Under the pieces are notes generated by a model. It made no database searches and was not told where the DNA came from. It worked only from the letters and a program-made list of their open reading frames with translations. A stretch of 64,000 bases of DNA from the NCBI RefSeq assembly GCF_036588685.1, contig NC_086373.1, positions 98,580,001 to 98,644,000 on the forward strand, in the 5' to 3' direction. A program made the position numbers and the translations under genes. Shown in pieces: positions 17,630-56,568 of this stretch; the first letter of the stretch is position 1, and each line of letters starts with the position of its first letter. The stretch comes from Mytilus trossulus (Eukaryota).

Positions 17630-20600
17630 TCATCTGATTGGGGAAGAATCAGTGTTCCTTGATTGCCATCGCCATAAGTCCTCACCTTAAAAATGGAAAA
17701 CATAGAACGTAGGCTATGCTTAAAAAAAAGACATATATGCTGCGCCTAAGATATCACGATATAAAATTAATTACATAACATGTGCAATATTTCATTGTGA
17801 AAATAAAATCCTATCACTATAAGAACTTATCTTGTATGAGTGAAAGCACATATTGAGTATATGTTTCAATCAGACATTCATATTGGCCGGAAAACAACAC
17901 AAATCTTTCAAATGTGTCAAAAGGACACATCGTCCAGAACGCACTTTATTATTTACATTTTTATTGACCCTGTGAAATCTTGGTTAAAACCTCAATTTTT
18001 CATATATTTCAACAGTTCCATTCATAATATAGGTGTTCAAAGTACGAAGTTGGTGTGAACTTACTACCTACAGTCAAAACTTGAAACGGTACGGACATAT
18101 GCACCGATCGGAAACCATAATGCCCCTCTACTTTTAGGCAGGGTATACCCTCCAAGTTTTAACGATTTCGTAATAGAAAAGTGTCATTTCGTAATGTCAG
18201 GCTCTAATCACCTAGCTTGTCGTTTTTGGCCGGGATGGGCGAAATCCCAAAAACCGACTTAAATAATGGTGAGGTCGGGCGACTGGATCGTCGGTTTGTG
18301 GAATCATACAACTACTTCCACAACTTCCAACCCAGATCCCGAAAATATAATAGGGGTATTGCACATATGTTGAAGTTATGCAACTGCTATTATAGGTATA
18401 ATTGAGGCAAGATTTTTCCAGACTAGGGATTAAATCTTATGAAAAAGGGCTTTTTGTTTTGTGTAATCAAATAACCTACCCCAACTCAGACTCCCTGAAA
18501 CTTTACAATAAGATTGTACATACTAGTATATTGAAGTGACTGGGGAAATTAGTATTTTTTTCAGCAAAATTAATGAAAGATTTTTGTGTAGTCAACTCCT
18601 CCTACAGTTTTCAACCCAGATCCCTGAAACTTTCATTCCGTTTTGTGGAGAATGTTTGAGGTTTTTCATTCCTTTTTATAATTTTGGAACTACTGCAAAC
18701 TATTTTTTTTAATATTTGAATGTTCAGTATAGAGCCGTCTCCATTGTTTAACAATTACACCTTCAGCACATCCCGTCAATCTGAAGATTCTGTCTATTTT
18801 CATGTTCTTTTAATATTTCATTGGATTTTGCAACCAAGAGAGCCCATTAGCTATGTGGGAAACTTTATTGTGTAGCTAATGTGAAGAACCGACTGTTTCG
18901 GGAACAAATTTTATAAATTAGAGAGCTGTTTTATCATATTTCAAATGCATAGAAAGATGTTCTTTTAAATAGTTTCATATTTAACAATCCTCGATCTCCA
19001 TCAACATGTCAGTTTAGAACGAAAGATTGTCATAAATATTTTGCTACATGAATATGCAGATATGTAAAGGTTGAGCTTATATCTTACACATTTCCTTTAA
19101 TCCTTTTGTTGATTTCCAACCTAACTCTTCAAATGCTAAATCTGGTTTACAATAAAACGATCCTATGTCCCCTGGTCTACGGTCTGCTATTCTGTACTTC
19201 ACCTTATAAAGATAAGAAATCCTCGTCTAATAGAAAACATTTCATAAGGCATGCTATGGTAAATATAAGTCTAAGTTTCGTTTTACGAAAACATTCTTTA
19301 ATTAATGTTCAGTTATATATATTGACTGTTCAGCATTATTTCAGTAACACCAGAGAATGACGTATTGTATATGTATAGCCATGCATATTCTAGAGATTGT
19401 ATTTAATATCAAAATTTCCATGAACGATAAAAAAAATACATCTTTCTGTCTGTCCTCTAGTACGCTCTTTATAAAATCAATAACTTATTCGATATCTTCT
19501 TCGATAACTTATTCGATATCGTCTTGATAATTTTTTCGATAACTGGTTCAATAATTTACAATTTATATATTTCAAAATAACATATTTGTGAATAGCAAAT
19601 AACAAGTTTTTGGATTTTGATGTGTCACATTGGTTTCCCGCTCTTGAATTAATAGACAAACAAATCATAGAAGGAAAATAAAGACATATTGGAGGTACGA
19701 AAAAAAAGACCACTTTTAAGCAGAAAAGATGAAAAGGTCAGACTTACTTCTTTACCCGATGATTTACTCATAGCATTTATCATATCCAGTACAGAATGAC
19801 ATTGGCCTGATCCCATGTTGTATATCTGTAAAATAACAAGCAATGTTCCATGACATCAATTGGTGCCTCAGTAAATATGAAAATTGAATGTAACTATATG
19901 CAATAAATATTTTATTTACATTTTGAACTAAGATCAAGCTTACTGAACTCGTGCATTCAGTGCTAGAAAAAAAGACGGTTCCAATCAATGGATAGTATAT
20001 GCTGAGAACTTTAATAATTTAAAAGTAGCGAATGCACCATAATATATATTATTTTCTGCTGACTATGTGGTACTGGCTTTGTTCATTGTTGAAGGCCGTA
20101 CAGTGAACTAACGTTGTTAATTTCTGTGTCATATAGGTTGTCACTTGTGAAAGTTGCCTCATTGGCAATCATATCACATCTTTTTTATGTACACTCTTTT
20201 TTTTCTGTTTAAAATCTCACCCGTAATCCACATTCCTTCTCCAACTTCTTTTGTGCTAATACGTGTGCATAGGCAAGATCCACCACGTGAACGTAATCTC
20301 TGACACCTAATAAAGCAAAAATTGTTAACTACACAATAAAGCTGACAAAAATAACAATGAAATGCACATTAAAACTAGTGCTAATCGTAAGGACTTACTT
20401 TTGCATCTAATATTTGCCACTGAACATCAAGCATAAAATAAGTAATAATCCCCCGGCATACCGAGTCTACAGTTAGTTAAAACATGGAAGTATTATATTG
20501 TCAATATATTATATTGTCAATATAATACTTCCATGGTTAAAACAAGATAAAATTAATTCCCATTTATCCATACAATATCTTTTATCAACGAAATATTTCA

Positions 20601-22378
20601 GAAATATAAATTCATATATACCTGTGCCATCATGGGTATCAAAATCATTTCCATATATGACAACTTCCGATCTTTTATCAGCGGCTACCTGAGCACAGTA
20701 GGCTATTAAGTATGCAGGTGGACCTTGTGTACTGTCACCAATCTTACCAGACTGATGTGCACCCGCTACATTAAAGTAACGTAGAATGATTATGTTCCAG
20801 CCCTATACAAAATATATAATGACAAACTATTAATAGTGTACATAGCAGTTGTTTGAAACAACTGTACAATCATGGCAAGGATATTACATACTATATATAG
20901 TACATCACACCATAAACTCACTTGAACAGGAGTAAATAGACACGAATAAGAAGAAAGAAAAAACCAGTTGCAAGTTAGCTTCTAATTGAATTTGTTTTGT
21001 AATGACAAAATAGTTAGTTTTTTAATCAGAAAATATACAGATATATAAATGTGTATTATACTATAATATTTGTAGACTGGTGATTATATTGGTTACTCAA
21101 ATGACTTACTTGTTCTGCTTTGCACAAATCTTTGAATAGTTCTTCCATACATTGCTTTGTTTTGCCGTACGGTTTAATACCTCGTCCAGTGCGGTGTTTT
21201 TCATCCAAAGGTAAATATTCGGGAGAACCATAGACAGATGCTGAACTTGAAAATATTAGGTTTTTAACATTGTACTCTTTCATTACCTGGAAAACAAATG
21301 GAATATATTTTTGTGATGTTAAAATTCGTTCATCAATCATACACCAAAAGGACAATCGCAATATAATGACCCCTCAAAATTTAAAATGTAGAAATATCAC
21401 ATCATGTCATGAAAAGACGAAAGGAAGAACAGTATATATGTATATGTGGTTAAGTTAACTCAATATTTTATATTACATTTCATCATGATCTGGATTCTTT
21501 GGTATATTTGTCAAATCAAACACATAACAACATAATTTTATTAAAACGAATTGGTCTTATTGAGACTATGACATTTCCTTGTACCTTGTTTATTTCTACC
21601 AGCGACATACAATACATATATGTCTCTGTTTCTACTATATATATACATACCTCTATCAAGTTAATAGTTCCACAAACATTTACTCTGTAGTACAGCAATG
21701 GTACATCACAAGATTCTCCTATAACCTTCAGTCCGGCCGTATGTACCACACTGGTGAATTTATGCTGCAATGGAGTAATACATACGTATGTACAGCTTTT
21801 ATAAAGATATACTCCCTGTACGCATCCAAAAAAGAAATACAGTTTCGAAAGTTACACAGTTATTAAATCTTGTATAGAACAGAATTCAAGAATAATACAC
21901 CTCAAGTTGACATGATTTATAATTTCATAAAATTTTCCAAGCATACTTCTATCAAAAACTTTATACCAAGCACACAAACATATTATTTTACCTTACTAAA
22001 TAAGTTCTGTAGAGCAGATTTATCAGTTAAATCTATGCTGTAATTTATTATTGTTGTTCCACATATTTCTTCTATTCTCATCATAGTTTCTGAAAAAAAA
22101 GGAAAGAAAACTTCTACTGTAATTCCAAGTCCATAAATTATCTTTCGTATGTGTCCACGAAAAAACTGCATCATTGTCAACTTGTTAAATTATAGTGTTA
22201 TTGTTTTCATATATAAAAAAAAAACATGTCTTGTCGCCAAGAGATAGTACTCACCATGACTAGCATTAACAAAGTTGTCTACAACAACAACAGAATATCC
22301 TGCGTTGATTAGTTCTATAACAGAATGGCTGCCAACAAAACCGGCTCCTCCTGTCACCAAAATACACCCACTTGACAT
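17630..22378 (-). CDS. GALE: Divergent UDP-glucose 4-epimerase paralog (GALE-like), 342 aa, intact; exons 22378-22255, 22089-21992, 21764-21651, 21286-21110, 20802-20622, 20306-20221, 19825-19748, 19202-19088, 17685-17630
   Basis: All introns are GT-AG. Exon lengths 124/98/114/177/181/86/78/115 are identical to the plus-strand GALE, with no stops or frameshifts. Motifs [40 protein letters not shown]. Confidence 0.93.
20483..20535. mobile_element. 53-bp palindromic mini-element, same 18-bp arms as 4657-4693, perfect 7-bp TSD GTTAAAA
   Basis: CATGGAAGTATTATATTG...CAATATAATACTTCCATG flanked by GTTAAAA at 20476-20482 and 20536-20542. Confidence 0.8.
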
Positions 22379-22486
22379 TTCTGTAAAAAATAATAAAAAT
22401 GTGCCATGTAAAAGCTGTGTACAAACCAGGCTTTTGTGGCAGACATGACGATTATGACGATTTAGAGTATGACATATGTGTAGAAA

Positions 22487-23063
22487 AATTTGTAAGGGTT
22501 CCGCGGAACCCAGTGTCTCGCCTATTTTTGCTGTAAATCGCAGGCTCAACAACATTGAGGAAAAAAATCAAAATATTCCACTTGTTACTATTTTATGATT
22601 GTAAGAAAATCTAAGTCCATTTAAAAGTAAATTACAGAAAAAACAGAGTAATCTTTTTACAAAATTTACTTCTGGATACAATCTTATGGTCATACATAAG
22701 CTTCTGTCCAAGTTTGGTACAAACCCAGGATAGTTTAAGAAAGTTATTAAAATTTTAAAAACTTTAACCACAGAGTGAATGTTTTGTTTCCCCGCAGAAA
22801 AAACTAAGTCCATTTATAGTAAAATACGGAAAAAATGGAATTTTATTTTTACAAAATTTACTTCTGGATACTATCTTATGATCATAAACAAGCTTCTGTC
22901 AAAGTTTGGTAGAAATACAGTATAGTTTAAGAAAGTTATTAAAATTTCAAAAACTTTAACCACAGAGTGAATATTTGTTGACGCCGCCGACGACACCGAC
23001 GTCGACGGAATGTAGGATCGCTTAGTCTCGCTTTTTCGACTAAAGTCGAAGGCTCGACAAAAA
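22487..23063 (-). mobile_element. HINE/DINE-1-like non-autonomous Helentron, family B (~190-bp internal repeats)
   Basis: Hairpin GGGTTCCGCGGAACCC, subterminal GTCTCGCCT/AGGCTCGAC, (GCC/GAC)n microsatellite, hairpin TTCGACTAAAGTCGAA, A-run flanks with no TSD. Three copies in the window. Confidence 0.8.
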
Positions 23064-24659
23064 TGTATATTGTTTATGACCGTGTGTTGGCATCCTAGCT
23101 GATATATTTTGGTTTTATTCGTTTTTTTTGTCTCATTGGGGTATGTCGTATATCCCATGTCATCCTTTTGCCATGTCAACTCTACTTAAAGTCTTGATTA
23201 TTACCATACCATGCTTTAAGAAATTTTATACATTAAAAAAGTTAGTAATAACCTACCTATATCCTGGGAACAGTATATCTATATAACCCTCATACACTGA
23301 TTCCTTAGGTCAAGTGGCATTTCTCTTTTTGTACCGTTGGTTGATTTTTGGCAATGGTCAATAGGCTTATCTAGAAGGAGCATATGTTTCAGCTAGTCAA
23401 CTGTTTTGCAAAACATCACACAGTTTTCAAATAACGCAAGTGATTCGTAAGTAACGGTGCTTTTCGGGTTTACTTAATCAACCTATGCCCTTTAATCATA
23501 CCATATTTCGTCATTCTTGTATTCGATAATTTTATTTTTAGTTCCTTTATAGATCTTTCTTTATTATGACATTTATCCGTTCTGTTTGACCTGTTTCAGA
23601 CAAAAATAACGTAAATCTACAAACGTCGGGTAGTTTATTGATCATATTGATCTCTTATGGTATCAGAACTTGTTTTCTCATTTTCATCCTTAGGGCATTT
23701 TAGCTATAATTAACCTTCTTACATTCTTCAAATTGTATACTATGTAGGCACTTTCAAAATAAACATGTCACGTTGTACTGTTGCTGTTCAAACGCAATTC
23801 ATGATTTCCTTCAGAAACACCCTATGGAGGTATAATTCCATGTCGATGTGCAGTTGTACTGTGTGAAAATAATAATTGTGGATTAATTACTACGAGTCGA
23901 AAGCAAAACATGGGTTCTTACCTTTGAAATTATTCAGTTTTGTTCATCCCGGATATACAAATCTCACATGCTAATTTTGCTTGGTCATTTTATTTTTAAA
24001 ACATTGATTTATTTTTACCTATCAGAATCAGTCTTGCGAAACATTTCTGTATAATGATAATTAAAGTTTGAGTCGAACATACAGAAGTTGACAAATTGAA
24101 GGGTGATCTACGTGATCTGGTCTCTGGTGGATAATTGTTTCTATAGCAATCACAACGCCACTTCATTTTTTTCCACGTTAATTTGACATGTTTTGTCATA
24201 AAATTATTAAAGAAAAAAATCAAAAACCTCACACTTCAAAGGTAAATCATTTTAGAATATCATTCCATAAAAAAATATATTCTGACACATTTAAGTTTTT
24301 CTCTTTTTTTCTACACATTGTGGTTGTGGGTTGTGATGCAGTTTTGCACTGATCGAAGCGTGGTTTCAGTAGAAGTTGTATATAATTTAGGGGTCCTTAA
24401 TGAGCTTCTGAAATATTTCAGGATCTCTATGATAGAATTTAAATCATCGAGGACATGGGCATATTTCGGGTTCTCTTAGAATCTGTCAAAATTTAAGGTC
24501 ATAAAATACTCAGTTTTTTTCTCAATGGGATTTCAGGACTGCTACAATTTTACTTCAGGCCTCCTTAAACGTGTATGGAGGTCCACAAATCAGTTTCTGG
24601 ATACCCTGAAGTATTCAGTGCCTATTGAAGTCCTGAAGTATTTTAAGATATCCTGTATT

Positions 24660-25128
24660 CGAATTATGGAGGTCATGAAATTATTAAGATTCCAGAAATC
24701 GAACAATAAAGGGCATGCCATATTTATTCATGAGGACCTCAATACATGGGTTTATTGGTTACCGTAACTTGAATCATGGAGGTCCTGAAATATGTATTGC
24801 CGCACGAGGACCCCAATACCAGGGGTTTTTGTTATCTTAATTCGAATCAGGGAGAACCAGAAATATTTATTCATGAGGACCTCAGTACATGGGTGTATTG
24901 GTAACCTTAAATCAAATCAAGTAGGACCTGGGATGTTTATTCACGAGGACCCTCAGTACATGGATTTATTGGTTACCTTAATTCGAATCATGGAGGACCT
25001 GGCATATTTATTCACGAGGACCCAATACATGGGTTAATTGGTTCCCTTAACTCGAATCATGGAGGACCATAAATATTTATTAATGAGGACCTCAGTACAT
25101 GGGTTTATTGGTTGTCTTATTCGAATCA
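24660..25128. repeat. ~70-bp minisatellite, ~6 degenerate copies
   Basis: GAGGACC recurs at 24732, 24806, 24875, 24945, 25016 and 25085 within a TATTTATTCAYGAGGACCTCAGTACATGGGTTTATTGGTTACCTTAATTCGAATCATGGAGG-like unit. Confidence 0.85.
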
Positions 25129-25799
25129 GAAACTGAAAAATTTCAAGGGCTTTTTAAATACAATAAATTTGACTAAATCCGAGTCTCATTTTGTTTTCTT
25201 TTTTAATTTTGAACAGAAACTATTATTAAAGATTTGCCACTGGACGTGAACCAATCACCAAAGAATGAAGGAAAGATCTGTGACACATGTGCATCACTTA
25301 TCAATCATATCATGCTTTATTTAAGAATAATTATCAACAAATGGAAGTTTTTAACGACCTTGACTGGCTATACAGCCCTTGCACGGTCGGTGAATAATGA
25401 ATTGAAAACCGTTATCTTGGATTGTAAAATAGTATGCAATGCACAATCGGTCTAGTTCTTTGCTTGAATCTGCAAATTTTCAGACAGATTGTCAATTAAT
25501 GTGCAAGACTGTTTACTCGAATAAAGAAAATTAAGTGATTTATTACATTATAATATTAAGACGGTTTCAACAAACATCAAATATTTGTTTCGAAACAATT
25601 TTCAACTTAGCCATTAAAGGGGAGATAACTCTAATAGTATTTGTTTAACAATAAAAGGAACTTAAAAGAAATTTTCATTTTTTTTCTTGAAGCAAGAAAA
25701 CAAGATCGGTGACAGTGATGTATTTGTATTTTCGTTAAACATATTTTAATTCTATATTATCATATTTTGTTTTAAAAAAAAAGCGGACTTGTAGATTGA

Positions 25800-26752
25800 A
25801 AAATTCTTAAGGGTTCCTCGGAACCCAGTGTCTCGCCTACTTATGGTGTTAATTGCAGGCTCAACAAAAGAGGAATACAATCAATAAAAATATTCCTCTT
25901 GATACTGTCTTATGATTCTAAGAAGCTTCTGTCCAAGTTTGGTAAAAATACAGTATGTTTTAAAAACTTTTTTAACAATTCCATTTATAAGTAAAATACA
26001 GATACTAGCTTTTGATCATAAACAAGCTTCTGTCCAAGTTTGGTACAGGTCCAAAATAGTATAAGAAAGTTATTAAAATTTTAAAAACTTTAACCACAGA
26101 GTGAATGGTTGTTTCCTGGCAGAAAATCTAAGTCCATTTAAAAGTAAAATGCACAAAAAATGGATTTATTTGTTAACAAAATTTACTTCTGGATACTTTG
26201 TTATGATCATAAACAAGCTTCTGCCCAAATTTGCTACAAACCCAGGATAGTTTAAGAAAGTTATTAGCTTTCAAAAACTTTAACCACAGAGTGAATGTAA
26301 TGTTTCCTGGCAGAAAAACTAAGTCCATTTTTAAGTAAAATATGGAAAAATGGAATTTTATTTTTCCAAAATTTCCTTCTGGATACTATCTTATGATCAT
26401 AAACAAGCTTCTGTATAAGTTTGGTACAAATACAGGATAGTTTAAGAAAGTTATTAAAATTTCAAAAACTTTAACCACAGAGTAAATATTATGTTATGGC
26501 AGAAAAACTAAGTCTATTTATAAGTAAAATACGGAAAAATGGAATTTTATTTTTACAAAATTTACTTCTGCATACTATCTTATGAACATAAACAAGCTTC
26601 TGTCCAAGTTTGGTAGAAATCCAGTTTAGTTTAAGAAAGTTATTAAAATTTCAAAAACTTTAACCACAGAGTGAATATTTGTTGACGCCGCCGACGGAAT
26701 GTAGGATCGCTATGTCTCGCTTTTTCGACTAAAGTCGAAGGCTCGACAAAAA
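25800..26752 (-). mobile_element. HINE-like element family B, longest copy (~4-5 internal 190-bp units)
   Basis: Same termini as 22487-23063; AAGCTTCTG...AAGTTTGG recurs near 26024, 26215, 26405 and 26594. Confidence 0.8.
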
Positions 26753-27111
26753 TAGCTAATGACCCATACTTCATTAATATGTTTAAAGTCTACATTTCAT
26801 AAAGGTATAGGAAAATTAAATCGGAGGGACTATATGCCCATAATCCACCTTAAATATGTTTCAGTTATTTTTAATTAAGTATTAACAGGGACTTGTTAGT
26901 ATAGAAAGTCCCTGGTATAAATAAAGGTAAAAAATTTGACGGGAACACTTTACTTGCTGGAAGGTTTAAACAGGATTGGGAGAGCTCATCCCTTTTCTTA
27001 ATTTGGACAGTACTATAACAGCACAGCATATTACAGCATTTAATTTTATCATTTCTAAATAGTTATACTAGTTGTTGTTACACTATATTATAACATTTGG
27101 TAGTAGTTAGT

Positions 27112-31468: not shown

Positions 31469-31603
31469 AAAATCACATTATTCAATAAAAGGATTACAGT
31501 GTTATCTAAATATTAAACTATTATTGTCACTATTAATATTAAAACACTTTTTTGTATTTGTGGGAAATTTTAGATCAACAATTGTCACCTTTATAAAAAG
31601 AAA

Positions 31604-33410: not shown

Positions 33411-33688
33411 AAAGAAACTACTCTGAGTCAAGTAAATTATTAATTATACTGAAACTAATCTGATAATGGAATATCAAGCTAATATATAAACATACAATTT
33501 AAACAACAGTGAATTTTACCTTCTACACTGCTAACAATAAGTTTATAAAATCAAATTCAAGAGTTTTGTAAGAAAAACAAAAGCATTACAATAAATGTAA
33601 GCATCATTGAAAATCATAGTTATACTCCCTAACCATATCATACCATAACCACACAGGACTTTCATCATAAAGAACAAACAATTGGCCT

Positions 33689-36600
33689 TTAATTATAAAA
33701 CGGGTTAAATGTAACCCAGTGAGCAGACTGTTGATTCTTTGCCTTTTTTGATGTTGTAAATAGAGATTTGTATACATCTGTTGTAGTGGTGTCTTTCTGA
33801 ATACTTTCAGCTTTGTCTCCTTGTTTTCCATTGGTCATCTTCAATTTGGAATCTGACGTTTTATTGGGCAATCTAATTTTCTTATCTGAAATTCCATTGT
33901 TCAATTTTCCATTTGTACTTGGTATTCCACTGGATGATGCACTTGAAGATGCTGTCTCCACTTTGGGTTGTTTACTTGAAGATTCACCATTTATTTCTGA
34001 AATAAAGCAAAATTACCAAAATAAAATATGACTTTTAAAAGTGACAGCTTGTTATGAAGGCTTAATTATTCTTTGAAAGCTATATTTTGCCAAAAATGTT
34101 GTTCCCGCCAAATATGACAGTTGACTTTTACTTATATTTTTTAGCAATAATATGCAATATAAAAATATGAGTTAAATATTATTTTACCTGTTGCTTGTGT
34201 TTCATCAGTAACTTTGTGTTTCTGTGCTTTCTTTGATTTCTACAAGTAAGTAAGATTAACTTTAGTAACATGTGATTACAATACTTAACCCTAAGACATT
34301 TAAAATGCTAAAATAAATGTTTCTATCCCAAATTCATGTTTTAGTTTTGATGCTATATTTGTCATTCTCATTGGATTTTGTCTAATGTTTAGTTTGTTTC
34401 TGTTTGTGTTACATTTCATTGTGTCATTGTTCTCCACTTATATTTCATGTGTTTCTCTCAGTGCTAGGTTGAAACCTGGATTTGTTTTTTCTTATCAATT
34501 TATGAGTTCTGAACAGCGGTACCACTGTTGCCTTTAGTTTTTATCTGCAATATTTTCCTTTAGCCTTCTGTAAATGAAGTTTTATAATTTATTGAAGACT
34601 TGTCAGGGGTTAAAAAAATTTGTTACAGCTAACTAGCCCAGGACTTTTTGGCAGGAGGATTTTACTAGCCCTGTTTCAAGAACTGCTAGCCCATCAAAAC
34701 CAACCTGCTAGCCCAAGTATAACTTACAAATCACTCAGGGTGTGCTGCATAAGACGCTGGGAATGTGTGTCATGTTTTGAAAGGGAATGTGTGTCATGTT
34801 TTGAAAGGGCATTTGTAGACAGTCTCGGGCTTTTCATCCTCAACAATCGACCTTGCCCACGGGAATCTTTCATTCCATGTCGCTATGAACGTTCTTTTTC
34901 GCTTGTCCCGATCGTACTTTCTATTTTTTTTTTAGATGTATCAGCCTCATTAGAATCCCCTTCATTTGCCGATTTTCGCTTTGAACTTGAAGTTGATGAA
35001 GTTTCTGCGCTTGCCGTAGTAAAATATGTTGATATATTTTGTTGCATTGAAAGTTTTGTGCTCCCTGCTTAAACAGTTGTCCGACCAGAGTCTAGATGGA
35101 TCAATACCTATCAATACATTATACCCCCCGGTACCGTTAATTGAAAAACTCGACAGAACCAATGAAAAATATCCCCGTTATAACATATAACGAGAAATTG
35201 ATATTGAAAGTACAATAACTGCGATCAATACATGATACTGGGCCACCCGGAGTTATTTGTTCTATTTTTTAAACATGTTACTGTGCATGAGGTGAGGACC
35301 TGTACAAACCAGTTCAAATTCTTGGAATCCCGGATGACGTAATTGAATCTGATTGGCTAAGACAGAAAAGTGATGAAGGGATTTTCCACTTTCTATTTTA
35401 GACAAGCCAAGAATTTTTTGTTACTAGTCCGTCGGGCATACTGGGTTATAAGTTTTGGTTGCCCGAGACGTAAATGTCTAGTCCCGGGCGTCGGGCTAGT
35501 GGATTTTTTAACCCCTGCTTGTATGAAAATAACTAGAGGCTCTAAAGAGCCTGTGTCGCTCACCTTGGTCTATGTGAATATTAAACAAAGGAAGCAGATT
35601 GAAAATTGACTACAAAGGTCAATAACTCCTACAGGGGTCAATTGACCATTTCATTCATGTTGACTTATTTGTAGATCTTACTTTGCTGAACATTATTGCT
35701 GTTTACAGTTTACCTATATCTATAATAATATTCAATATAATAACCAAAAACAGCAAAATTTCCTTAAAATTACCAATTCAGGGGCCGCAACCCAAAAACA
35801 GGTTGTCCAATTCTTCTGAAAATTTCAGGGCAGATAGATCTTGACCTGATTAACAATTTTACTTCATGTCAGATTTTCTCTAAATTATTTGGTTTTTGAG
35901 TTATAAGCCAAAAACTGCATTTTACCCCTATGTTCTATTTTTAGCCGTGGCGGCCATCTTGGTTTGATGGCCAGGTCACCGGACACAATTTTTAAACTAG
36001 ATACCCCAATGATGATTGTGGCCAAGTTTCAAATAATTTGGCCCAGCAGTTTCAGGGGAGAAGATTTTTCTAAAAGATTACTAAGATTTACGAAAAATGG
36101 TTAAAAATTGACTATAAAGGGCAATAACTCCTAAAGTGGTCAACTGATCATTTTGGTCATGTTGACTTTTTTGTAGATCTTACTTTGCTGAACATTATTG
36201 CTTTTTACAGTTTATCTCTATCTAAAATAATATTCAAGATAATAACCAAAAACAACAAAATTTCCTTAAAATTACCAATTCAGGGGCAGCAACCTAACAA
36301 CGGAATGTCAGATTCATCTGAAAATTTCAGGGCAGATAGATCTTAACCTGATTAACAATATTACCCCATGTCAGATTTGCCTTAAATGCTTTGGTTTTTG
36401 TTTTGAGTTATAAGCCAAAAACTGCATTTTACCCCTATGTTCTATTTATAGCCATGGCGGCCATCTTGGTTAGTTGGCGGGGTCACCGGACACAATTTTT
36501 AAACTAGATACCCCAATGATGATTGTGGCCAAGTTTGGTTTAATTTGGCCTAGTAGTTTCAGAGGAGAAGATTTTTGTAAAAGTTAACGCAGGACGACGA

Positions 36601-39600
36601 CGACGACGGACGCCAAGTGATGAGAAAAGCTCACTTGGCCCTTTGGGCCAGGTGAGCTAAAAATGGGTGTAATCAGGCAAAATATTTTTCAATGTAACAT
36701 AGGGGAAAAATGGAGTTCAAACATCTGACCAAAATACGCCTTTTCAGAATTTAAGGCCTATTGGTAATCTCATTGTCAGTACACCAAAATGAAAATAATG
36801 TTATGTCATTGGTTGAATTTCTATTGTTTATCATACTTTAAACCAATCACAACATTTGGTGTACGTTTTTGGATATATTACCCAGAATGAATTAGAATCT
36901 GAAACAGTGAATTCCTAAACATCACTAGGTACATACATGACAGTGCATCATGTCTTCAATGGCTTCCATTATTTTTTTTATCTCAAAAAGATGTTACATA
37001 AAATAATTCATAATTTTTTCTCATTGAAATGGTAAGTAAAACAATTGAATTCAAATTTACGCATCAAATTTGCTAATTTCAGATAACAGTAAAAAAATCT
37101 ACAACCATCATCAGCAGCTATTTGTAAAAAAATTTAGACCCTTATCTACCCTAATTTTGTTTCCTGATTATATATGTATCATCCAGTTTCAAACTTTATC
37201 ATAAAAAGATATTATTATCAACTGTTGTATCTGATACATATATTTTCTCAAAATATTAATCAAATTTTTGTTTGCCAGATAATTGGAATCTTGTTTCATG
37301 AGAGCTTCAAGGTGGCCAGGAAATATCAAATACCTTAGCAAGCTTGGCTTGTTCTCGTCTTTTCTCCATGTTTGACCTTAACTCATCAACATCTGTTTCT
37401 GTACCATTTAGAACAACCATATCATCTGTAGAATAGGGTTTACCGCACTACAAAGAAAATATATATATCATTTTTAAAATTATGTACCATTCAGAACAAC
37501 CATATCATCTGTGGAATAGGGTTTACCACACTACAATGCAAATATAATTATTTCATGTAAGAAGTGTTTTCATAATACTGATGCCAAAGTCCCATGGAAT
37601 AATTCATTTTAAAACAGGTGCTAGAGAGTTCCTTTTGAAAGAAGAAGCAAATTTAAACAGACAAACAAATTTGGAATAACAGAATTTGATTGCAGTGAGA
37701 GGTATGACCTGGAAATTAGTTCTTATGAAAAAAAGAAAGGATTTAAGAGCTAACAAGAATGGAAAGAATTACAATTCATACCTTGTGACATATTTCAGAT
37801 TTGATTTCTTTTAGAGCTCGTTCAGACATTACACATCCGCAACTCCATACAAAACAAAATCTGGAAAAACGAAAAAAATGCAATTCAAGGAATTCAATTG
37901 GATTTAAAGAGTACAAATTACACAATTCAGGAAGTGACAATTTTAAAAAATTTACTAAGTGGAATGTTATGTCTTTCAAATAAAAGCTTTTTCCATATCA
38001 AAACAGTAACCAAATCTTGAAACACTGTTACAACAGTTATCTCATTAAATGTTTCATGAGCAATTGACAAAACTGAATACCATGTTTTGTTACACATAGT
38101 TTTACCTACTAAATACTATATTTGGTTAAACTTACTTTTACTTACTAAATACCATGTTTTGTTAGACATACGTTTACCTGCTAAATACCATGTTTTGTTA
38201 AACATAGTTTTACCTACTAAAAACCATGTTTTGTTAAACATAGTTTTACCTACTAAATACTATGTTTTGTTAAACTTACTTTTACTTACTAAATACCATG
38301 TTTTGTTAGACATACGTTTACCTACTAAATACCATGTTTTGTTAAACATAGTTTTACCTACTAAATACCATGTTTTGTTAAACATAGTTTTACCTACTTA
38401 ATACCATGTTTTGTCAGACATAGTTTAACCTACTAAATAACATGTTTTGTTAAACATAGTTTTACCTACTAAATACTATGTTTTGTTAAACTTACTTTTA
38501 CTTACTAAATACCATGTTTTGTTAGACATACGTTTACCTACTAAATACCATGTTTTGTTAAACATAGTTTTACCTACTAAATACCATGTTTTGTTAGACA
38601 TAGTTTAACCTACTAAATAACATGTTTTGTTAAACTTACTTTAACCTACTAAATACCATGTTTTGTAAGACATACTTTTATCTACTAAATACCATGTTTT
38701 GTTAGAATACTTTTACCTACTAAATACTATGTTTTGTTAAACTTACTTTTACCTTCCAAATACCATGTTTTGTTAGACATAGTTTTACCTACTAAATACC
38801 ATGTTTTGTTAGACATAGTTTAACCTACTAAATAACATGTTTTGTTAAACTTACTTTAACCTACTAAATACCATGTTTTGTAAGACATACTTTTATCTAC
38901 TAAATACCATGTTTTGTTAAACATACTTTTACCTACTAAATACCATGTTTTGTTAGAATACTTTTACCTACTAAATACTATGTTTTGTTAAACTTACTTT
39001 TACCTTCCAAATACCATGTTTTGTTAGACATACTTTTACCTACTAAATATTATGTTTTGTTAAACATAGTTTTACCTACTAAATACCATATTTTGTTAGA
39101 CATACTTTTACCTACTAAATACCATGTTTTGTTTAACATAGTTTTACTTACTAAATACCATGTTTTGCTAAACATAGTTTTACTTACTAAATACCATGTT
39201 TTGCTAAACATAGTTTTACCTACTAAATATGATGTTTTGTTAGACATACTTTTACCTACTAAATACCATGTTTTGTTGGACATAGTTTTACCTAAAAATA
39301 CCATGTTTTGTTAAACATAGTTTTACCTACTGAATACCATGTTTTGGTAAACTTACTTATATGTTCCGTTCATCTCCAGTCCAACTACTGGACATATATA
39401 AGGTGAGGTTTGTGTGTCTATATATGAATCACCTTTCTTTGCTGTTTCTTTTTGGTAGGCTGGATTGTCTGTGAGTTTCAATTCTTTAACATCCTACAAA
39501 TAAAATGTGATCATACTGATACAAGTTAAGACAAAACACATTTAAATAAATTACTGTACTATGGTATAACATTTTCTTCCCCTGCAGTATGAACCAAACT

Positions 39601-42600
39601 TTTATGTCTTTTAATTCCTACTTATGCTTATGTTAAGTTCTTTAAAAAAATAAATGTTTTCCTGTTTCCCAACCTGAAACAGCATCAACACAACTATTTA
39701 CCACTAGTTAGTCCTATATATTAATTTGTCCCAGTAGATTGATTAGTGTACATACCCCTTCTTTATGGTATGTTCTCATGTGGTAAAAGGTCATGTTGGA
39801 TGGCAACAGTTATCTCATTAAATGTTTCATGAGCAATTGACAACACTGAATACCATGTTTTGTTACACATAGTTTTACCTACTAAATACCATGTTTTGTT
39901 AAACATACTTTTACCTACTAAATACCATATTTTGTCAGACATACTTTTACCTACTAAATACCATGTTTTGTTTAACATAGTTTTACTTACTAAATACCAT
40001 GTTTTGCTAAACATAGTTTTACTTACTAAATACCATGTTTTGCTAAACATAGTTTTACCTACTTAATTCAATGTTTTGTTAGACATACTTTTACCTACTA
40101 AATACCATGTTTTGTTGGACATAGTTTTACCTACTAAATACCATGTTTTGTTAAACATAGTTTTACCTACTAAATACCATGTTTTGTTAAACATAGTTTT
40201 ACCTACTAAATACCATATTTTGTTAGACATACTTTTACCTACTAAACACCATGTTTTGTTTAACATAGTTTTACTTACTAAATACCATGTTTTGCTAAAC
40301 ATAGTTTTACTTACTAAATACCATGTTTTGTTAGACATACATTTACCTACTAAATACCATGTTTTGTTAAACATAGTTTTACCTGGCAGTTGAAATGATA
40401 AAACACAATTTCTAATGGGGGTTATAAATTTTTTGATTGAATAACCCTAAAATAATTAATAATTGTTTAATGATATTTTATCTAGACTGCGTTAATGATG
40501 GCAACCATTTGTGATGGTACATTGTATTTAGGCTCAACAACCATAATTCTTAAAGAATACCATAACTCTTTACATGATTTTCAAATTTGTTGGTCAAATG
40601 ATAGGATCCACTTTAATTGCAAACTGCCCAGTGGTTTCAGAGGAAAAGATTTGTGAAACAGTTGATGGATGTGACTTGATGTGATGGCAGATACTGTATC
40701 CTTTGTAGCTGGTTCATTCAATTCAGTAACGCATTAATAAACAAAGTGCAAACTAGGCCAATGTTCACCATGATTTTAAAAATTTGTAAGGGTTCCGCGG
40801 AACCCAGTGTCTCGCCTACTTTTGCTGTAAATCGCAGGCGCAACAAAAATGAGGTAAAAATCAATAAAAATATTCCTCTTGATACTATCTTATAATTGTA
40901 AGAAGCTTCTGTCCAAGTTTTGTAAAAATCTAGGATAGTTAAGGAATCTAATAAATGTTTTGAAAATTTTAACTGCAGACTGTATGTAAGTCCATTTAAA
41001 AGTAAAATACTGAAAAAATGGATTTATTTTTTACAAAATTTACTTCTGGATACTATCTTATGATCATAAAAAAGCTTATGTCCAAGTTTGGTACAAACCA
41101 AGGATAGTTTAAGAAAGTTATTAAAATTCTAAAAAATTTAACCACAGAGTGAATGTTATGTTTTCCCGCAGAAAAAACTAAGTCTATTCATAAGTAAAAT
41201 ACTGAAAAAATGGAATTTTATTTTTACAAAATTTACCTCTGGATACTATCATATGATCATAAACAAGCTTCTGTCCAAGTTTGGTAGAAATCCAGTATAG
41301 GTTAAGAAAGTAATTAAAATTTCAAAAACTTTAACCACAGATTGAATATTTGTGAACGCTGCCGCCGCCGACACCAACGGAATGTAGGATCGCTTAGTCT
41401 CCCTTTTTCGACTTAAGTCGAAGGCTCGACAAAAACAGAATAAACACTTCTTAACACATGAAGTACCTACCTTTAGTCCTCTAATATGGGCAAAACCAGA
41501 TGCATTTTCGAACTTGCTCTTGTCAATCAGAAACTCTAGGATGGACTCTTTATTATAAAGCCTAGAAATAAACATTGAAAGAAATGAAGCAAAAAAGAAC
41601 AGGTATTGTAATAAGGATCTTTTAAACTTTGTTGAAATAAATTTGTAGGTAAACTCAATAAATGTTTTATTTCTAATCAACAACTTAAATTTTAAAAAAC
41701 ACTAATTTTGTGCAGACTTTGTTTCATAAAGGTAGACAAAAGTTTAATACTAATAATAATGATTGAAAGTAGCAATACTAGTACTACTAGATAGTTTTTA
41801 CTATAATCATGATGATTAAATATGTGAAAGTCCTTAACCATCAATTAATTTCAAAATATTATGAAGTCATTGGTTAAACAATGTATCAACATATTTTAGT
41901 GGTCTGCTCATTTGTTTACAGTTGATTCCATTTAAACCATTTTGTTTAAAACTATTCAGTTGATGATCCCTTCTGTATTTTATATGTACCTTCCAAGTTC
42001 ACATCCCATAATTGGTGTTCTAAGGGGTTCCTGTGTTATAGCACATAGTTTCCATTTCGCAGCTAAATCTGCTACTTTATTTTTCTGTAATGTAAAACAA
42101 GATTAAAAAGTTTATTACTAATACACTCATGCACACATTGTGAGCAACAAGAGAAACATAATATAGTTAACAACATAATAAATTAGTCAATAAATTGGTC
42201 AAATAACATAACCCCTGTATCATGTTTATCACTACAGGAGAAAAAGAGCTTTTCAGTATTTGTGAAATTGTGAAACAAGTTCAAGGTAGTACTCCATAGA
42301 ATAAAATATTCAAGAGAGATTATTAATAGAGTGTTTATGCACTTTGAATTGAAAATAGTATTGGCTAGGTTTTACAGGTTTCATGAGAATTAATTCTGTC
42401 TCACTTTTGATTTTTCTGTTGTTTTAGTATCAGACAATTACATGGATAAATATTAGTGGGATGGGTTGAGAAAATGAATAGACTACTATCTCTAATAAGA
42501 TAAATTATCAGCTTTATTAGAGTATTTGGATGTTTCTGTAAAAAGATACAGTTTTTATATTAAAAAGTAAACAATATGAATAACAACAGGTTGTGTCATA

Positions 42601-45600
42601 ATTCACCTGAATATAAATATATTTTCAATCCGTTTAACATAAACTTTTAGTGGTAAATTTTATAATTATCATGAAACATGTAAACTATTAGTCACTTAAA
42701 GGTTTTTATATTATTCCTGTAAAAAAAATGTTGAAAATTTTGTCAAAAATCAACATTTTAAGTGTTTATATTAAACAAATAAAAACCTAATCAAAGTACT
42801 GAAGTACTGAAAATACAATGACCACAAGTTAGTTCTTGACAACCTCACAGTCTATCATATTGTAGTGATACAAATCAGTATACACTGGTTTGTTGTTATG
42901 TATTATATCACTCTATTCAACTAGTCAATAATTATAGTGCAATGTGTATGGTGGACAACCTTCTGAAATAATTTGATTTTCTAATAGATTGGATTTGAGT
43001 AAGCATTCATATTTCCAGCAAAACATTCTTGAGATATTCTCCTGTATGCTTTAAATAACACTTTTTTTCTGTACTTTAGTATAGATATTTATATCAATGA
43101 TTTTTTTACTTATAAATATATATATTTTTAACCACAAAAAATATTAATTTTCAAATGTAAGTTCTAAAAAAATAATTCTATGAGTATTCATTGAAGAGAT
43201 GAATTTATAACAAGCGATAAGGAATGTTATTTTGCACTTGATAATGTCCACCTATTTATAGATTGAATACCAGTTAAACAAGAACAAGAGTGCACACACT
43301 GAAATGTCTTGCCTTCTTTACTAATCATTGATATTATGTTGATAGTCCTAATAATAAAGCTTTATTACAACTGTCACATAAACTTAACATAAACCAAGAA
43401 AAACTAAACATTGACCTTTGAACCATGAAAATGAGGTCAAGGTCAGATGAACCATGCCAGGTAGGCAAATACAGCAAACAATTCTTCCATACAGCAAATA
43501 AAATTGACTTATTGCTTATACTTAAAGAAAAACAGACCAAAACACAAAAGCTTAACACTGAGCAATGAACCGTTAAAAATGAGGTCAAGGTCAAATAAAA
43601 CCTGCGTGACTGAGTGACATGTAGATCATGAAATATTTCTATACACCAAATATAGTTGATCTATTGCATATAGTATTAGAAAAAAAGGCCAAAACTCAAA
43701 ATTTAACTTTGACCACTGAACCATGAAAATGAGGTCAAGGTCATATGACACCTGCCAGGTAGACCTGTACACCTTACAACCATTCCATACACAAAATATA
43801 GAAGACCTATTGCATAAAGTATAAGAAAAACAGACCAAAACACAAAAACTTAACTATAACCACTGAACCATGAAAATGAGGTCAAGGTCAGATTACACAG
43901 TTGGACATGTACACCTTACAGTGCTTCCATACACAGACCTGTACTAGACCTATTGCTTATAGTATCTCAGATATGGACTTGACCACCAAAACTTAACATT
44001 GTTCACTGATCCATGAAATGAGGTCGAGGTCAAGTGAAAACTGTCTGACGGGCAAGAGGACCTTGCAAGGTACGCACATACCAAATATAGTTATCCTATT
44101 ACTTATAATAAGAGAGAATTTAACATTACAAAAAATCTTAACTTTTTTTTCAAGTAGTCACTGAACCATGAAAATGAGGTCAAGGACATTGGACCTGTGA
44201 CTGACGGAAACTTCGTAACATGAGGCATCCATATACAAAGTATGAAGCATTCAGATCTCCCATCTTCTAAAATATAAAGCTTTTAAAGCTAACACCGCTG
44301 CCGCCTTAGCCGCATCACTATCAGTCTTCACGCTGAACTTCCAGATCTACAGGCCCGGTATCGGGATTGTTCGCCCTAATTACATGTTCGCCCTAGGTTC
44401 GTTCGCACTGAGTTTGTTCGCCCTGGTGTTCCGTTCGCCCTGAGTTCGTTCGCCCTATTCTCATTAATGATATGTATATGTTACATTAATGAAAGAAATG
44501 CATATTTACATTAAAATTTATGTTTATCTATTAAAAGCTGAATACAGAATATTAATTAAATAAAATTCGGGTTGGCTGCTACATTGATACACTTTATTTT
44601 ATAATTACTTTTAATTACTGTTGATTGAATTTTGATTGCTGATTAGGTATAATTTGAAATTCTTTGATATCACTGATTGTTATATGAATTGTCTTTGAGG
44701 GATTAATAATGAAAATAAAAATTTTCTCAAATAAAATAGTCAGCTTGGATGGGTAAAAACACTGATGTACAAATTGTTAGACATGAAAGGGAAATTATTT
44801 TCGCAGCTTGGCTTCTTTGATCTCAGTGTGTTTTGACAAATTTGGTATATATGGAATTGGATTATGGAACCGGTGCATTATTCCATAAACTATGGAAGTG
44901 TACATGTGTATTTCGTGTGACAGAGAGGTCCGACCTATTCAACATGCAGTATCATGTGACGTATGTGAGAGATGGCAGCATAGATTGTGTGGCACTGGTA
45001 AGTGTTTCAATTGATAAATATATAAAATTTTGTGCAACTATCATCAGGATCTATAGGAAGATGTGGTGTGAGTGCCAATGAGACAAATTCAATCCAAATA
45101 GCAATTTATAAAAGTAAACCATTATAGGTCAATGTACGGTCTTCAGTATATATCCATATATATAATTAATGAACTTAAATAAATATATTAGGATAAAATA
45201 AGACAATATATATATATAACTACGTTAGTATGAATGTTTTCTCATATTTAGTATTATGTTCTAGTACAAGTAGATTTATATATAAAATTATTATCAATCA
45301 CGGTAATGGTCACTCCTTCTTAGTTATTTGTTTTATATTGATGTTTTAAATTATATTGTTCACATGTGATAATATTTATAATATCAAATTTCAATTTTCA
45401 GTATAACTTTTCAAGCTTACAAAGACGCCAGACATGGCAATGACCTACAGTTATATCCATAAGAAGTACACCATCCTGGAAGAGAAGATCCAGACGGCAT
45501 GGGACCAGTACATGGGCAATGTCATCACAACAACACACTTTTTGAAAGTGATTGCCAAACTGTACAAGCCGTCCGACAACCATGCCAAATACTTTGAATC

Positions 45601-46830
45601 CACAGAACCTTATCCTGGTAGCAGAAAGACAACATAATAACTTTACATACAAATTAATAGTTAAGTCTTCAGTTGTTTTACATTAAAAAAATACAATGTA
45701 GTGCTGAATTTTCGAGACACTTATTTCCCAGAAGCAGCAACACGTAATACATCATAAGTAAATATTCAGTGAATTTAAACAGACTTCAAAATATGCAATT
45801 ACATACAAATAGTTGAGTCTTCAGTTGTTTTACATTTAAAAATACAATGTAGTGCTGAAATTCACAAAAACTAATTTCCTAGTAACGTATTTACATACAG
45901 ATACTAACTTAGTTCTCAATACCTTGAAGTCAAAATATCTTGTAGTCCTGAAATTTACAGGAATATATAACCTAGCAGCAGCTAGCTGTAGACAACACAA
46001 TACATCGTAAATATTCGGCGAAATTGTAGACTGACTTCAACATATTCAATGAAATACACACAACACAACACTGTAATAAAAAATAAAAATCAGGGCGAAG
46101 GTACCCAGGGCGAACAGGTATCAGGGCGAACGGTCTCAGGGCGAAATGGAACTAGGGCGAACAGTAACTAGGGCGGACGGACCCGGATTCTACAGGCCCG
46201 CAGCTCAATTTTTGAAATTTTTTAGTTAGATTCTGTTGGCCTGTAGGTCTGATTTTTACAGGCCCGAGAGCAATTTTACCAGCCTAGGCTGCCTGGGCTG
46301 CCACTCGGCGTGAAGACTGCACTATCCCTATGTCGAGTTTCCTGCGACAAAAGTCGCAGGCTCGACAAAAATCACTGAGGCGACAACACAAAATGAACAA
46401 CTGAACAATACATCCGACCGCATGTCCTCACAGTCATCATGATATAAAATCAATAGGACATTGTTCAACTCTTGAGGTCCCTCATGGGGGTGTCTAAGTA
46501 ATCACAAAATCACATTTTTTTTATCAATGTGTAATCACATAATCATTAATTATTTTTTAAACAATATAAGCTGATAAACAATGAAATAACCCAAACCAAT
46601 CCTAAATTATTTAAAATGATTATGAATTATTTGGTCTGGTTAACAAATAAAATAAAAAGTAATCACATAATCAAAAACCCAAATGTAAACAAACAGGAAT
46701 CTGTCAGGAATATGACAAATTTTTGTAACATCGACATTTTCTGAATTTTTGTCATACGTACCTGTTCCGGTTTTTTCTTTACTCTAACAAGCTCGTCTCT
46801 TCTAGGAATGGTTCCTCCATCGCATCCCAT
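33689..46830 (-). CDS. RTF2: Replication termination factor 2 (RTF2/RTFDC1), 314 aa; exons 46830-46762, 42084-41990, 41561-41471, 39493-39357, 37860-37782, 37447-37334, 34239-34188, 33996-33689
   Basis: Diagnostic N-terminus MGCDGGTIPRRDELVR, then CELGRLYNKESILEFL, YICPVVGLEMNG, WSCGCVMSERALKE, CHKCGKP and C-terminal YKSLF...AHWVT. All junctions are GT-AG and in frame. Confidence 0.95.
34604..35517 (-). mobile_element. Internally deleted hAT-like DNA transposon, 14-bp TIR CAGGGGTTAAAAAA, 5-bp TSD CTTGT, with a frameshifted transposase N-terminal remnant
   Basis: TIRs at 34604 and 35504-35517 with CTTGT on both sides. Minus strand from 35047 reads MQQNISTYFTT...KRK, then after a frameshift in a 10-nt A run ...KRKRTFIATWNERFPW, resembling the start of a TTF-type zinc finger. 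Confidence 0.7.
35532..36660 (-). mobile_element. HINE-like element family A, third copy (two ~502-bp units, internal deletion) in RTF2 intron 6
   Basis: Same termini; units begin near 35608 and 36110. Confidence 0.85.
38073..39356. repeat. 36-bp minisatellite, ~35 copies, RTF2 intron 4
   Basis: Unit TACTAAATACCATGTTTTGTTAAACATAGTTTTACC; produces the spurious KYHVLLNIVLPT repeat ORFs. Confidence 0.95.
39846..40384. repeat. Second array of the same 36-bp minisatellite, ~15 copies, RTF2 intron 3
   Basis: Same unit and same ~40-bp left flank as the first array. Confidence 0.95.
40780..41435 (-). mobile_element. HINE-like element family B, third copy, RTF2 intron 3
   Basis: GGGTTCCGCGGAACCC ... 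AGTCGAAGGCTCGACAAAAA termini; ~190-bp units. Confidence 0.8.
44322..46319. mobile_element. ~155-bp MITE (TIR CAGTCTTCACGC, 6-bp TSD CACTAT) split by the MULE insertion
   Basis: CACTAT|CAGTCTTCACGC at 44316-44333 and GCGTGAAGACTG|CACTAT at 46308-46325. Confidence 0.8.
44357..46190 (+). mobile_element. Non-autonomous MULE (Mutator-like) element with TTCGCCCT subterminal repeats, 9-11 bp TSD and a transposase C-terminal remnant
   Basis: TACAGGCCC is duplicated at 44348-44356 and 46191-46199. About six GTTCGCCCT motifs on the left are mirrored by AGGGCGAA on the right. 45434-45637 encodes KKYTILEEKIQTAWDQYMGNVITTTHFLKVIAKLY, resembling invertebrate MULE transposase C-termini. Confidence 0.75.

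Positions 46831-48777: not shown

Positions 48778-56568
<7,791 letters not shown>

What the first reader, a model, noticed from the sequence alone, without database searches (positions are those of the whole stretch)
19155..19157. Gatekeeper switch Cys to Phe between the two GALE paralogs
Seen: TTT (Phe) at 19157-19155 in [10 protein letters not shown] versus TGT (Cys) at 55315-55317 in [10 protein letters not shown]. Established: human C307 permits UDP-GlcNAc/GalNAc turnover, whereas a bulky residue (E. coli Y299, human C307Y) restricts the enzyme largely to UDP-Glc/Gal. Inference: the locus encodes one broad and one narrow epimerase, potentially uncoupling galactose metabolism from GalNAc supply.
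Basis: partly seen in the sequence, partly recalled or inferred. Interest (0 to 1): 0.7.

Follow-up and report, generated by a model that had tools for sequence, protein, structure and literature searches.

The report
Mussel's narrowed duplicate sugar epimerase
Mussels keep a normal copy of the sugar-flipping enzyme GALE next to an intact, spliced duplicate whose sugar pocket carries two bulky residues, so the duplicate likely handles plain glucose/galactose but not the N-acetylated sugars; abalone and a freshwater mussel carry similar duplicates, and the abalone one arose independently.

Summary
Observation confirmed: TTT (Phe) at 19157-19155 and TGT (Cys) at 55315-55317 both align to human GALE Cys307. 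The locus is a Mytilus GALE triplication. A is canonical (Cys), B lies on the minus strand (Phe), and a third copy C just past the window has Thr. B is a 9-exon, 342-aa gene, spliced in transcript-like contigs, under purifying selection, with Phe in all five Mytilus species on record.

B also replaces the near-invariant Asn207, the other wall of the sugar pocket, with Tyr (0 of 322 homologs checked have Tyr). In all, 18 of 124 conserved columns are fixed-different in B and none in A. The catalytic Ser/Tyr/Lys and the UDP-binding residues are kept.

Abalone and Sinanodonta also pair a Cys copy with Phe copies; a single origin of the Phe copies is rejected (AU p about 1e-6).

Best reading: a UDP-Glc/Gal-only epimerase (0.55). 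A new substrate or low activity remains open; nothing was assayed. "Uncoupling" needs cells without A, which is untested. The scan earlier noted a related gatekeeper swap, by twin exons, in an arthropod GALE.

The parts
17630..22378 (-). GALE-B, divergent paralog, 342 aa; coding exons 22378-22255, 22089-21992, 21764-21651, 21286-21110, 20802-20622, 20306-20221, 19825-19748, 19202-19088, 17685-17630
   Evidence: Exon model with AG/GT ends and open frame; joints at all 8 introns in contigs of X7 and X19, 7 of 8 listed for X6, none in DNA run X1; ortholog P0001 scores 392 bits on TIGR01179 galE, cut-off 262.3
19155..19157 (-). Phe302 (TTT) = human Cys307, gatekeeper / C5-pocket wall
20710..20712 (-).
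   Evidence: Tyr in 10 of 10 B-type proteins; Asn in 115 of 115 and 57 of 57 closest homologs
20713..20715 (-). Ala201 = human Asn206; this Asn is also replaced in every other Phe-gatekeeper mollusc copy seen
20767..20769 (-). Val183 = human Pro188, next to the retained Asn182 (= Asn187, 20772-20770)
   Evidence: Pro in 115 of 115 homologs
21155..21244 (-). Intact catalytic triad of B: Ser127 (21244-21242), Tyr152 (21169-21167), Lys156 (21157-21155) = human S132/Y157/K161
21723..21728 (-). Lys87 kept (= K92); Val88 replaces Ala93, followed by Ile for Val94
23922..23949 (-). 3' end of a non-coding 5' exon of GALE-B, followed by a GT donor at 23921 (5' extent not mapped)
   Evidence: Loose end of an X6 contig at 22382 maps here once, 1 mismatch
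33692..46830 (-). RTF2 (replication termination factor 2) coding exons, between B and A, head to head with A
   Evidence: tblastn of P0131
48778..56568 (+). GALE-A, canonical copy, 346 aa, same 9-exon structure, Asn206/Asn207/Cys307 intact. A third copy, GALE-C (341 aa, Thr gatekeeper), follows on the same strand about 11 kb beyond the window end (G000:C1:98655092-98662277)
   Evidence: A identical to P0258 and C to P0137; 0 of 124 conserved columns changed in A; C located
55315..55317 (+). Cys302 (TGT) of GALE-A = human Cys307

Best explanation
GALE-B is an intact, spliced, conserved duplicate of mussel GALE whose sugar pocket carries Phe for Cys307 and Tyr for Asn207, and it likely works as an NAD+-dependent 4-epimerase of UDP-glucose/UDP-galactose that no longer turns over UDP-GlcNAc/GalNAc. 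Shown: gene structure, splicing, fixation in five species, purifying selection, retained triad and UDP-binding residues, and a GALE fold in the model. Established for the family: Tyr157/Ser132 with bound NAD+ oxidise C4, the keto-sugar flips, and hydride returns; the flip of an N-acetylated sugar needs room at both the C5 pocket (residue 307) and the C2 pocket (Asn207 swings out). Inferred: aromatic side chains at both walls exclude the N-acetyl group, as in the T. brucei enzyme (His and Leu at these walls). Copy A keeps supplying UDP-GalNAc, which frees B to specialise. B would add galactose/glucose capacity that does not draw on, and is less inhibited by, the UDP-HexNAc pool; true uncoupling would need cells where A is low.
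For: Phe at 307 makes Neisseria GalE monofunctional, shown by reciprocal mutants (PMC5349592). Human C307Y gives 0.02 GalNAc and 1.21 Gal activity (PMC6668579). A bulky C2-pocket residue marks the Glc/Gal-specific T. brucei enzyme. Triad, K92, N187, L208, R239, R300 and D303 are kept in all full-length B proteins. Listed coding differences to run X19 are 21 synonymous to 5 non-synonymous of 26, omega about 0.07, binomial p 6e-10. A-B dN/dS is 0.15. The model has pLDDT 93.8 and TM 0.95 to human 1HZJ. Every named species seen with a Phe copy also has a Cys copy: Mytilus, Haliotis rubra, H. asinina, Sinanodonta woodiana. Both activities are essential in Drosophila (PMC3359975 abstract), which fits the Cys copy never being lost.
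Against: No assay exists. Asn207 hydrogen-bonds the sugar O2 and Tyr there was seen in none of 322 homologs (115+57+150), so even UDP-Glc/Gal turnover may be impaired or the substrate changed. 18 of 124 conserved columns are fixed-different in B. B differs at 14-31 of 342 residues between Mytilus species against 4-11 of 346 for A, so constraint is relaxed; the omega estimate uses only 26 of at least 33 coding differences from one run. The ortholog P0001 falls just under the PRK10675 cut-off (383.8 vs 394). The gatekeeper rule fails in C. jejuni Gne. The X6/X7/X19 runs are only guessed to be RNA and give no tissue or level.
Confidence: 0.55

Rival explanations
1. B has moved to a different small nucleotide sugar, for example UDP-xylose/UDP-L-arabinose, a 6-deoxy sugar, or a 4-keto reduction, using the same NAD+/Tyr chemistry in a rebuilt pocket.
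For: Changes cluster in and beside the substrate site (93, 94, 134, 154, 155, 188, 199, 201, 206, 207, 210, 307; nearness of the non-hexagon positions is recalled, not measured). Catalytic residues are untouched and the stem branch is long (0.35-0.5). Val188 with an aromatic at 207 recurs in a distant bacterial GalE group: in the set 65 of 119 have Val188 and 58 have His207 (that set was selected by B's own words). Bulky walls suit a sugar without C6.
Against: No substrate evidence. K92, S132, Y157 and N187 (O6 contact) are kept, as expected for a hexose. A review of mollusc N-glycans has no mention of arabinose (0 hits, PMC8699351). B nests inside mytilid GALEs (100/99), not with other epimerase families.
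Confidence: 0.2
2. B is a low-activity or inactive copy kept for fold, NAD/UDP-sugar binding or a regulatory role such as mixed dimers with A.
For: Loss of Asn207 and Pro188, both invariant in 172 of 172 close homologs; faster evolution than A.
Against: The whole catalytic triad and the nucleotide-binding set survived a branch on which about 30% of residues changed; strong synonymous excess.
Confidence: 0.15
3. B is still bifunctional: the other pocket changes (Ala for Asn206, Val188, Ala210) reopen room for the N-acetyl group.
For: C. jejuni Gne is bifunctional with Leu294 and its mutants did not follow the predicted pattern.
Against: Each aromatic 307 variant cited in the passages read loses HexNAc activity or all activity; B adds a second aromatic at 207.
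Confidence: 0.1

Closest known systems
Human GALE (group 2, bifunctional; PDB 1HZJ/1EK5)
   Same: About 55% identity, same fold (TM 0.95), triad S132/Y157/K161, K92, N187 and UDP-binding residues. Copy A matches it at all six pocket walls.
   Different: B has Phe307, Tyr207, Ala206, Val188, Val93/Ile94. I found no report of an animal with a dedicated narrowed paralog.
Neisseria GalE alleles F300 (monofunctional) / S299 (bifunctional), PMC5349592
   Same: Natural Phe at the same position, experimentally monofunctional.
   Different: Those are bacterial alleles plus a truncated remnant copy, with the other active-site residues reported as conserved; here intact eukaryotic paralogs coexist and the C2 wall is also changed.
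Trypanosoma brucei GalE (group 1a; His221, Leu gatekeeper), PMC6668579 and PMC10482301
   Same: Bulky residues at both pocket walls, specific for UDP-Glc/Gal: the closest functional analogue of B's pocket.
   Different: Only 32-33% identical; His/Leu rather than Tyr/Phe; independent origin.
E. coli GalE (group 1b, Tyr299) and A. nidulans GALE (Leu320)
   Same: Bulky gatekeeper blocks UDP-GlcNAc/GalNAc turnover.
   Different: Both keep Asn at the 207 position.
Oyster MgUGE (PMC6032241)
   Same: The only characterised mollusc GALE I found; converts UDP-Glc/Gal.
   Different: The paper has no occurrence of 'GalNAc'. The oyster proteins seen have Val at 307 and Asn207.

Membership tests
GALE / UDP-glucose 4-epimerase (SDR1E, TIGR01179) | Family HMM above curated cut-off | tested here: met
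   P0001 (94% identical ortholog) 392 bits vs 262.3; but 383.8 vs 394 on PRK10675
GALE / UDP-glucose 4-epimerase (SDR1E, TIGR01179) | GxxGxxG NAD motif and Ser/Tyr/Lys triad | tested here: met
GALE / UDP-glucose 4-epimerase (SDR1E, TIGR01179) | Two-domain GALE fold | tested here: met
   pLDDT 93.8, TM 0.95, rmsd 1.6 to 1HZJ; a prediction built on GALE relatives
GALE / UDP-glucose 4-epimerase (SDR1E, TIGR01179) | UDP-binding residues N187, L208, R239, R300, D303 | tested here: met
GALE / UDP-glucose 4-epimerase (SDR1E, TIGR01179) | Measured UDP-Glc/UDP-Gal epimerisation | not testable with these tools
   no assay found
Group 2 (bifunctional) GALE | Small residue (Cys/Ser) at the C5 pocket | tested here: not met
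   Phe in B; met in A
Group 2 (bifunctional) GALE | Flexible Asn at the C2 pocket | tested here: not met
   Tyr in B; met in A
Group 1 (UDP-Glc/Gal-specific) GalE | Bulky residue at the C5 pocket | tested here: met
   Phe302
Group 1 (UDP-Glc/Gal-specific) GalE | Asn (1b) or His (1a) at the C2 pocket | tested here: not met
   Tyr; bulky like 1a but not identical. B may work like group 1 but descends from group 2
Group 1 (UDP-Glc/Gal-specific) GalE | No turnover of UDP-GlcNAc/GalNAc | not testable with these tools
   needs assay
Group 3 (WbpP-type, HexNAc-specific) | Gly/Ala/Ser at the 92/207/307 walls | tested here: not met
   Lys/Tyr/Phe in B

The most novel reading that the evidence does not exclude
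Molluscs have repeatedly (mussels, abalone, probably freshwater mussels) duplicated GALE and closed the N-acetyl pocket in one copy, and in Mytilus the copy has gone further, with a Tyr207/Phe307 pocket seen in no other GALE checked, to become an epimerase for a nucleotide sugar not yet known in animals (such as UDP-xylose/UDP-L-arabinose or a deoxy sugar).
Probability: 0.2. Interest if true: 0.8.

Novelty: new variant of a known kind. Interest (0 to 1): 0.5.

Why it matters
Animals studied so far run both 4-epimerisations through one GALE, and the two activities had to be separated artificially with bacterial transgenes in Drosophila (PMC3359975, abstract). A natural, repeatedly evolved animal paralog that drops the HexNAc reaction would show selection for separating them. 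It gives a close three-member series from one genome (Cys, Thr, Phe/Tyr; 65-84% identical) for testing the pocket model, and could supply a eukaryotic Glc/Gal-only epimerase for glycoengineering. If the substrate is new, it points to an unknown sugar in mussel glycans. The gatekeeper principle itself is long established.

Tried and rejected
1. Sequencing error, rare allele or pseudogene: rejected.
2. Haplotype duplicate: rejected; A-B are 69% identical, dS about 1.3, and both copies exist in five species.
3. Folding P0001 without an alignment failed (pLDDT 39.8); repeated with 149 rows. Model coordinates were not used in my scripts, so pocket volumes were not measured.
4. No RNA holder is on record for the stretch; contig depth cannot rank expression, so tissue and level are unknown.
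5. Orthology of B with the unnamed Phe/Cys207 clade P0138 (93/96, 83/94) vanished when exon 1 and pocket columns were dropped, so it is unresolved and may be convergence.
6. A joint origin of the Sinanodonta and Haliotis Phe copies is not rejected (AU p 0.09); Sinanodonta with mussel B is rejected only at p 0.013. Two independent origins are firm and a third is likely.
7. B as a mere read-through of RTF2 (the fused model VDI41840): unlikely, since B has its own upstream non-coding exon.
8. Five paper searches for mussel, mollusc, oyster, abalone or invertebrate GALE paralogs listed nothing on these copies. I saw only the listings (top 20 where longer), the library lacks most subscription papers, and no supplements were read.
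9. Complex prediction of an A/B dimer was not run; it would pass by likeness to solved GALE dimers.

Full report
Observation. The codons are as stated: TTT at 19157-19155 on the minus strand and TGT at 55315-55317 on the plus strand. A PDB search with the exon aligns the Phe to Cys307 of human GALE without gaps. Human numbers below follow the alignments (window residue + 5 after residue 41).

Locus. A galE family search of the own genome found three intron-containing copies in about 65 kb, plus unrelated intronless SDR genes elsewhere. Exon models give GALE-B (minus, 22378-17630, 342 aa), GALE-A (plus, 48778-56568, 346 aa) and GALE-C (plus, just past the window at G000:C1:98655092-98662277, 341 aa). 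All have the same nine exons and canonical splice sites; identities are A-B 69%, A-C 84%, B-C 65%. A and C equal proteins named Mytilus trossulus GALE-like, and B ends in one. RTF2 lies between B and A, head to head with A. B has its own non-coding first exon near 23922.

Is B a working gene? Contigs from three runs guessed to be RNA join B's exons at the predicted introns: 8 of 8 in X7 and X19, 7 of 8 listed in X6, none in DNA run X1. The Phe codon is unchanged in X7, X19 and X1; one X6 difference in that exon was not listed. Nine of 10 listed B-type proteins from five Mytilus species carry Phe, the tenth skips the exon, and all 10 carry Tyr at 207. Five of 20 cluster members were not listed, and P0124 is not independent of the window. 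Of 26 listed coding differences to X19 (out of at least 33; sites near piece ends are not listed), 21 are synonymous: omega about 0.07, p 6e-10. Against this, B differs at 14-31 of 342 residues among species and A at only 4-11 of 346. B is therefore constrained but less tightly than A.

What changed in B. Among the 115 hits ranked below the mytilid clusters (many unnamed), 124 columns are at least 95% conserved. B-type proteins differ at 18 of them, C at 5, A at 0. Kept: the NAD motif, S132, Y157, K161, K92, N187, L208, R239, R300, D303. Changed: A93V, V94I, T134S/A, T154I/V, N155K, P188V, E199D, P201T, N207Y and P210A/S, plus N206A and C307F at more variable columns. That the non-hexagon positions lie near the sugar is my recall of the human structure, not a measurement. 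Asn207 is Asn in 115 of 115 and 57 of 57 close homologs and in 137 of 150 diverse representatives, and never Tyr. Position 307 is naturally variable: C 70, V 35, F 3, M 3, I 2, L 1, S 1 of 115. So Tyr207 is the more unusual change. The predicted fold is a normal GALE.

Mechanism from the literature. PMC6668579 (passages and part 1 of section 7) describes two pockets. Residue 307 forms the C5 pocket, the primary determinant. Asn207 forms the C2 pocket and swings out for the N-acetyl group; T. brucei has His there and is Glc/Gal-specific. Human C307Y keeps 1.21 of Gal and 0.02 of GalNAc activity. PMC5349592 (passages) shows by reciprocal mutants that Phe at this site makes Neisseria GalE monofunctional. 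PMC3792076 (passages) shows the same for Leu in A. nidulans, with weaker inhibition by UDP-HexNAc in bulky variants. The C. jejuni preprint (10.1101/2020.09.22.308395, passages) is the counter-example: bifunctional with Leu294, and its mutants did not fit the rule. PMC10482301 (passages) also warns that sequence alone is not enough. Loss of HexNAc turnover in B is therefore likely (about 0.9 across my rivals). What B does instead is less certain: Glc/Gal epimerase 0.55, new substrate 0.2, low activity 0.15.

Repeated evolution. Haliotis rubra has one Cys and two Phe copies on one scaffold, H. asinina one of each, and Sinanodonta woodiana one of each. All these Phe copies keep Asn207 but lose Asn206 (Ser, Arg, Arg, His), as B does (Ala); Asn206 is replaced in 13 of 172 homologs overall. 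An unnamed mytilid-like clade (P0138) has Phe307, Cys207 and Thr188. Trees place the abalone Phe copies inside Haliotis and B inside mytilids. One clade of all Phe copies is rejected (AU p 6e-5 with all columns, 1e-6 without exon 1 and pocket columns), with 3 and 4 changes on the trees. The Sinanodonta copy is a long branch of unsure place, and the link of P0138 to B depends on the pocket columns. Trees used 34-50 hand-picked rows, mostly molluscs. No named species with only a Phe copy was seen, which fits both activities being essential in animals (PMC3359975, abstract).

On uncoupling. GALE is an equilibrium enzyme, so any A in a cell will still link UDP-GlcNAc to UDP-GalNAc. B can uncouple the two only where A is low; otherwise it adds Glc/Gal capacity. 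Expression by tissue could not be measured here.

Novelty. The gatekeeper principle and natural Phe alleles are known. I found no paper on these mollusc paralogs in five searches (listings only). The one characterised mollusc enzyme, oyster MgUGE, has no GalNAc test in its text (PMC6032241, passages). A mussel gill proteome lists one UGE spot without naming a paralog (PMC5302490, passages). An earlier scan note (e1-7594056, unchecked) describes twin exons swapping the same region in an arthropod GALE, a parallel that I did not test. Verdict: a real, conserved, spliced new variant of a known enzyme, with untested function; interest 0.5.

Noticed in passing
window 22378-22255, 48778-48901 and L002:1092-1215; window 53451-53528 and L002:6084-6161: Exon 1 is 90-95% identical among A, B and C, and exon 7 is 94% identical between A and C, while the other exons compared are 59-77%. 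This looks like exon-sized gene conversion between old paralogs.
   Followed up: partly
P0262 (M. californianus isoform X1) and P0267 (unnamed): Proteins with A-type exons 1-6 and a C-like 3' end carrying the Thr gatekeeper. They may come from alternative 3' exons, splicing from A into C, or chimeric models; if real, one gene would make Cys and Thr forms.
   Followed up: partly
L002:1092-8277 (G000:C1:98655092-98662277, GALE-C): Third copy with Thr307, Asn for Ala93, Cys for Ala133 and a one-codon deletion in the 201-207 loop; listed for M. trossulus, edulis and galloprovincialis only. Expression not tested.
   Followed up: partly
L006:2231-3400 (-), L008:2729-3820 (+), L007:2577-3377 (+, one stop): Intronless SDR genes, the two intact ones with an N-terminal hydrophobic stretch. 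L006's best PDB matches are 5U4Q and 6ZL6 (6ZL6 recalled as a UDP-glucuronate 4-epimerase). On C8 each follows an intronless ORF with a DxD motif that looks like a glycosyltransferase (no NCBIfam hit). This may be a plant- or bacteria-like UDP-GalA pathway in a mussel.
   Followed up: partly
window 33692-46830 and 17630-22378: A public model (VDI41840, P0132) fuses RTF2 to GALE-B, which pulls RTF2 proteins into the B cluster; probably an annotation artefact.
   Followed up: partly
Haliotis rubra XP_046544730/731/735; H. asinina XP_067679264/265: Cys and Phe GALE copies 90-92% identical within a species, with Asn207 kept: the cleanest natural pair for testing the gatekeeper.
   Followed up: partly
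window 29688-36664, 38031-40385, 22483-26755: Large tandem repeats (about 500-bp units and 36/72-bp units) and a dispersed element of about 190-bp units, in and around RTF2.
   Followed up: no
PMC7700177 reference list: [quoted passage not shown]
   Followed up: no
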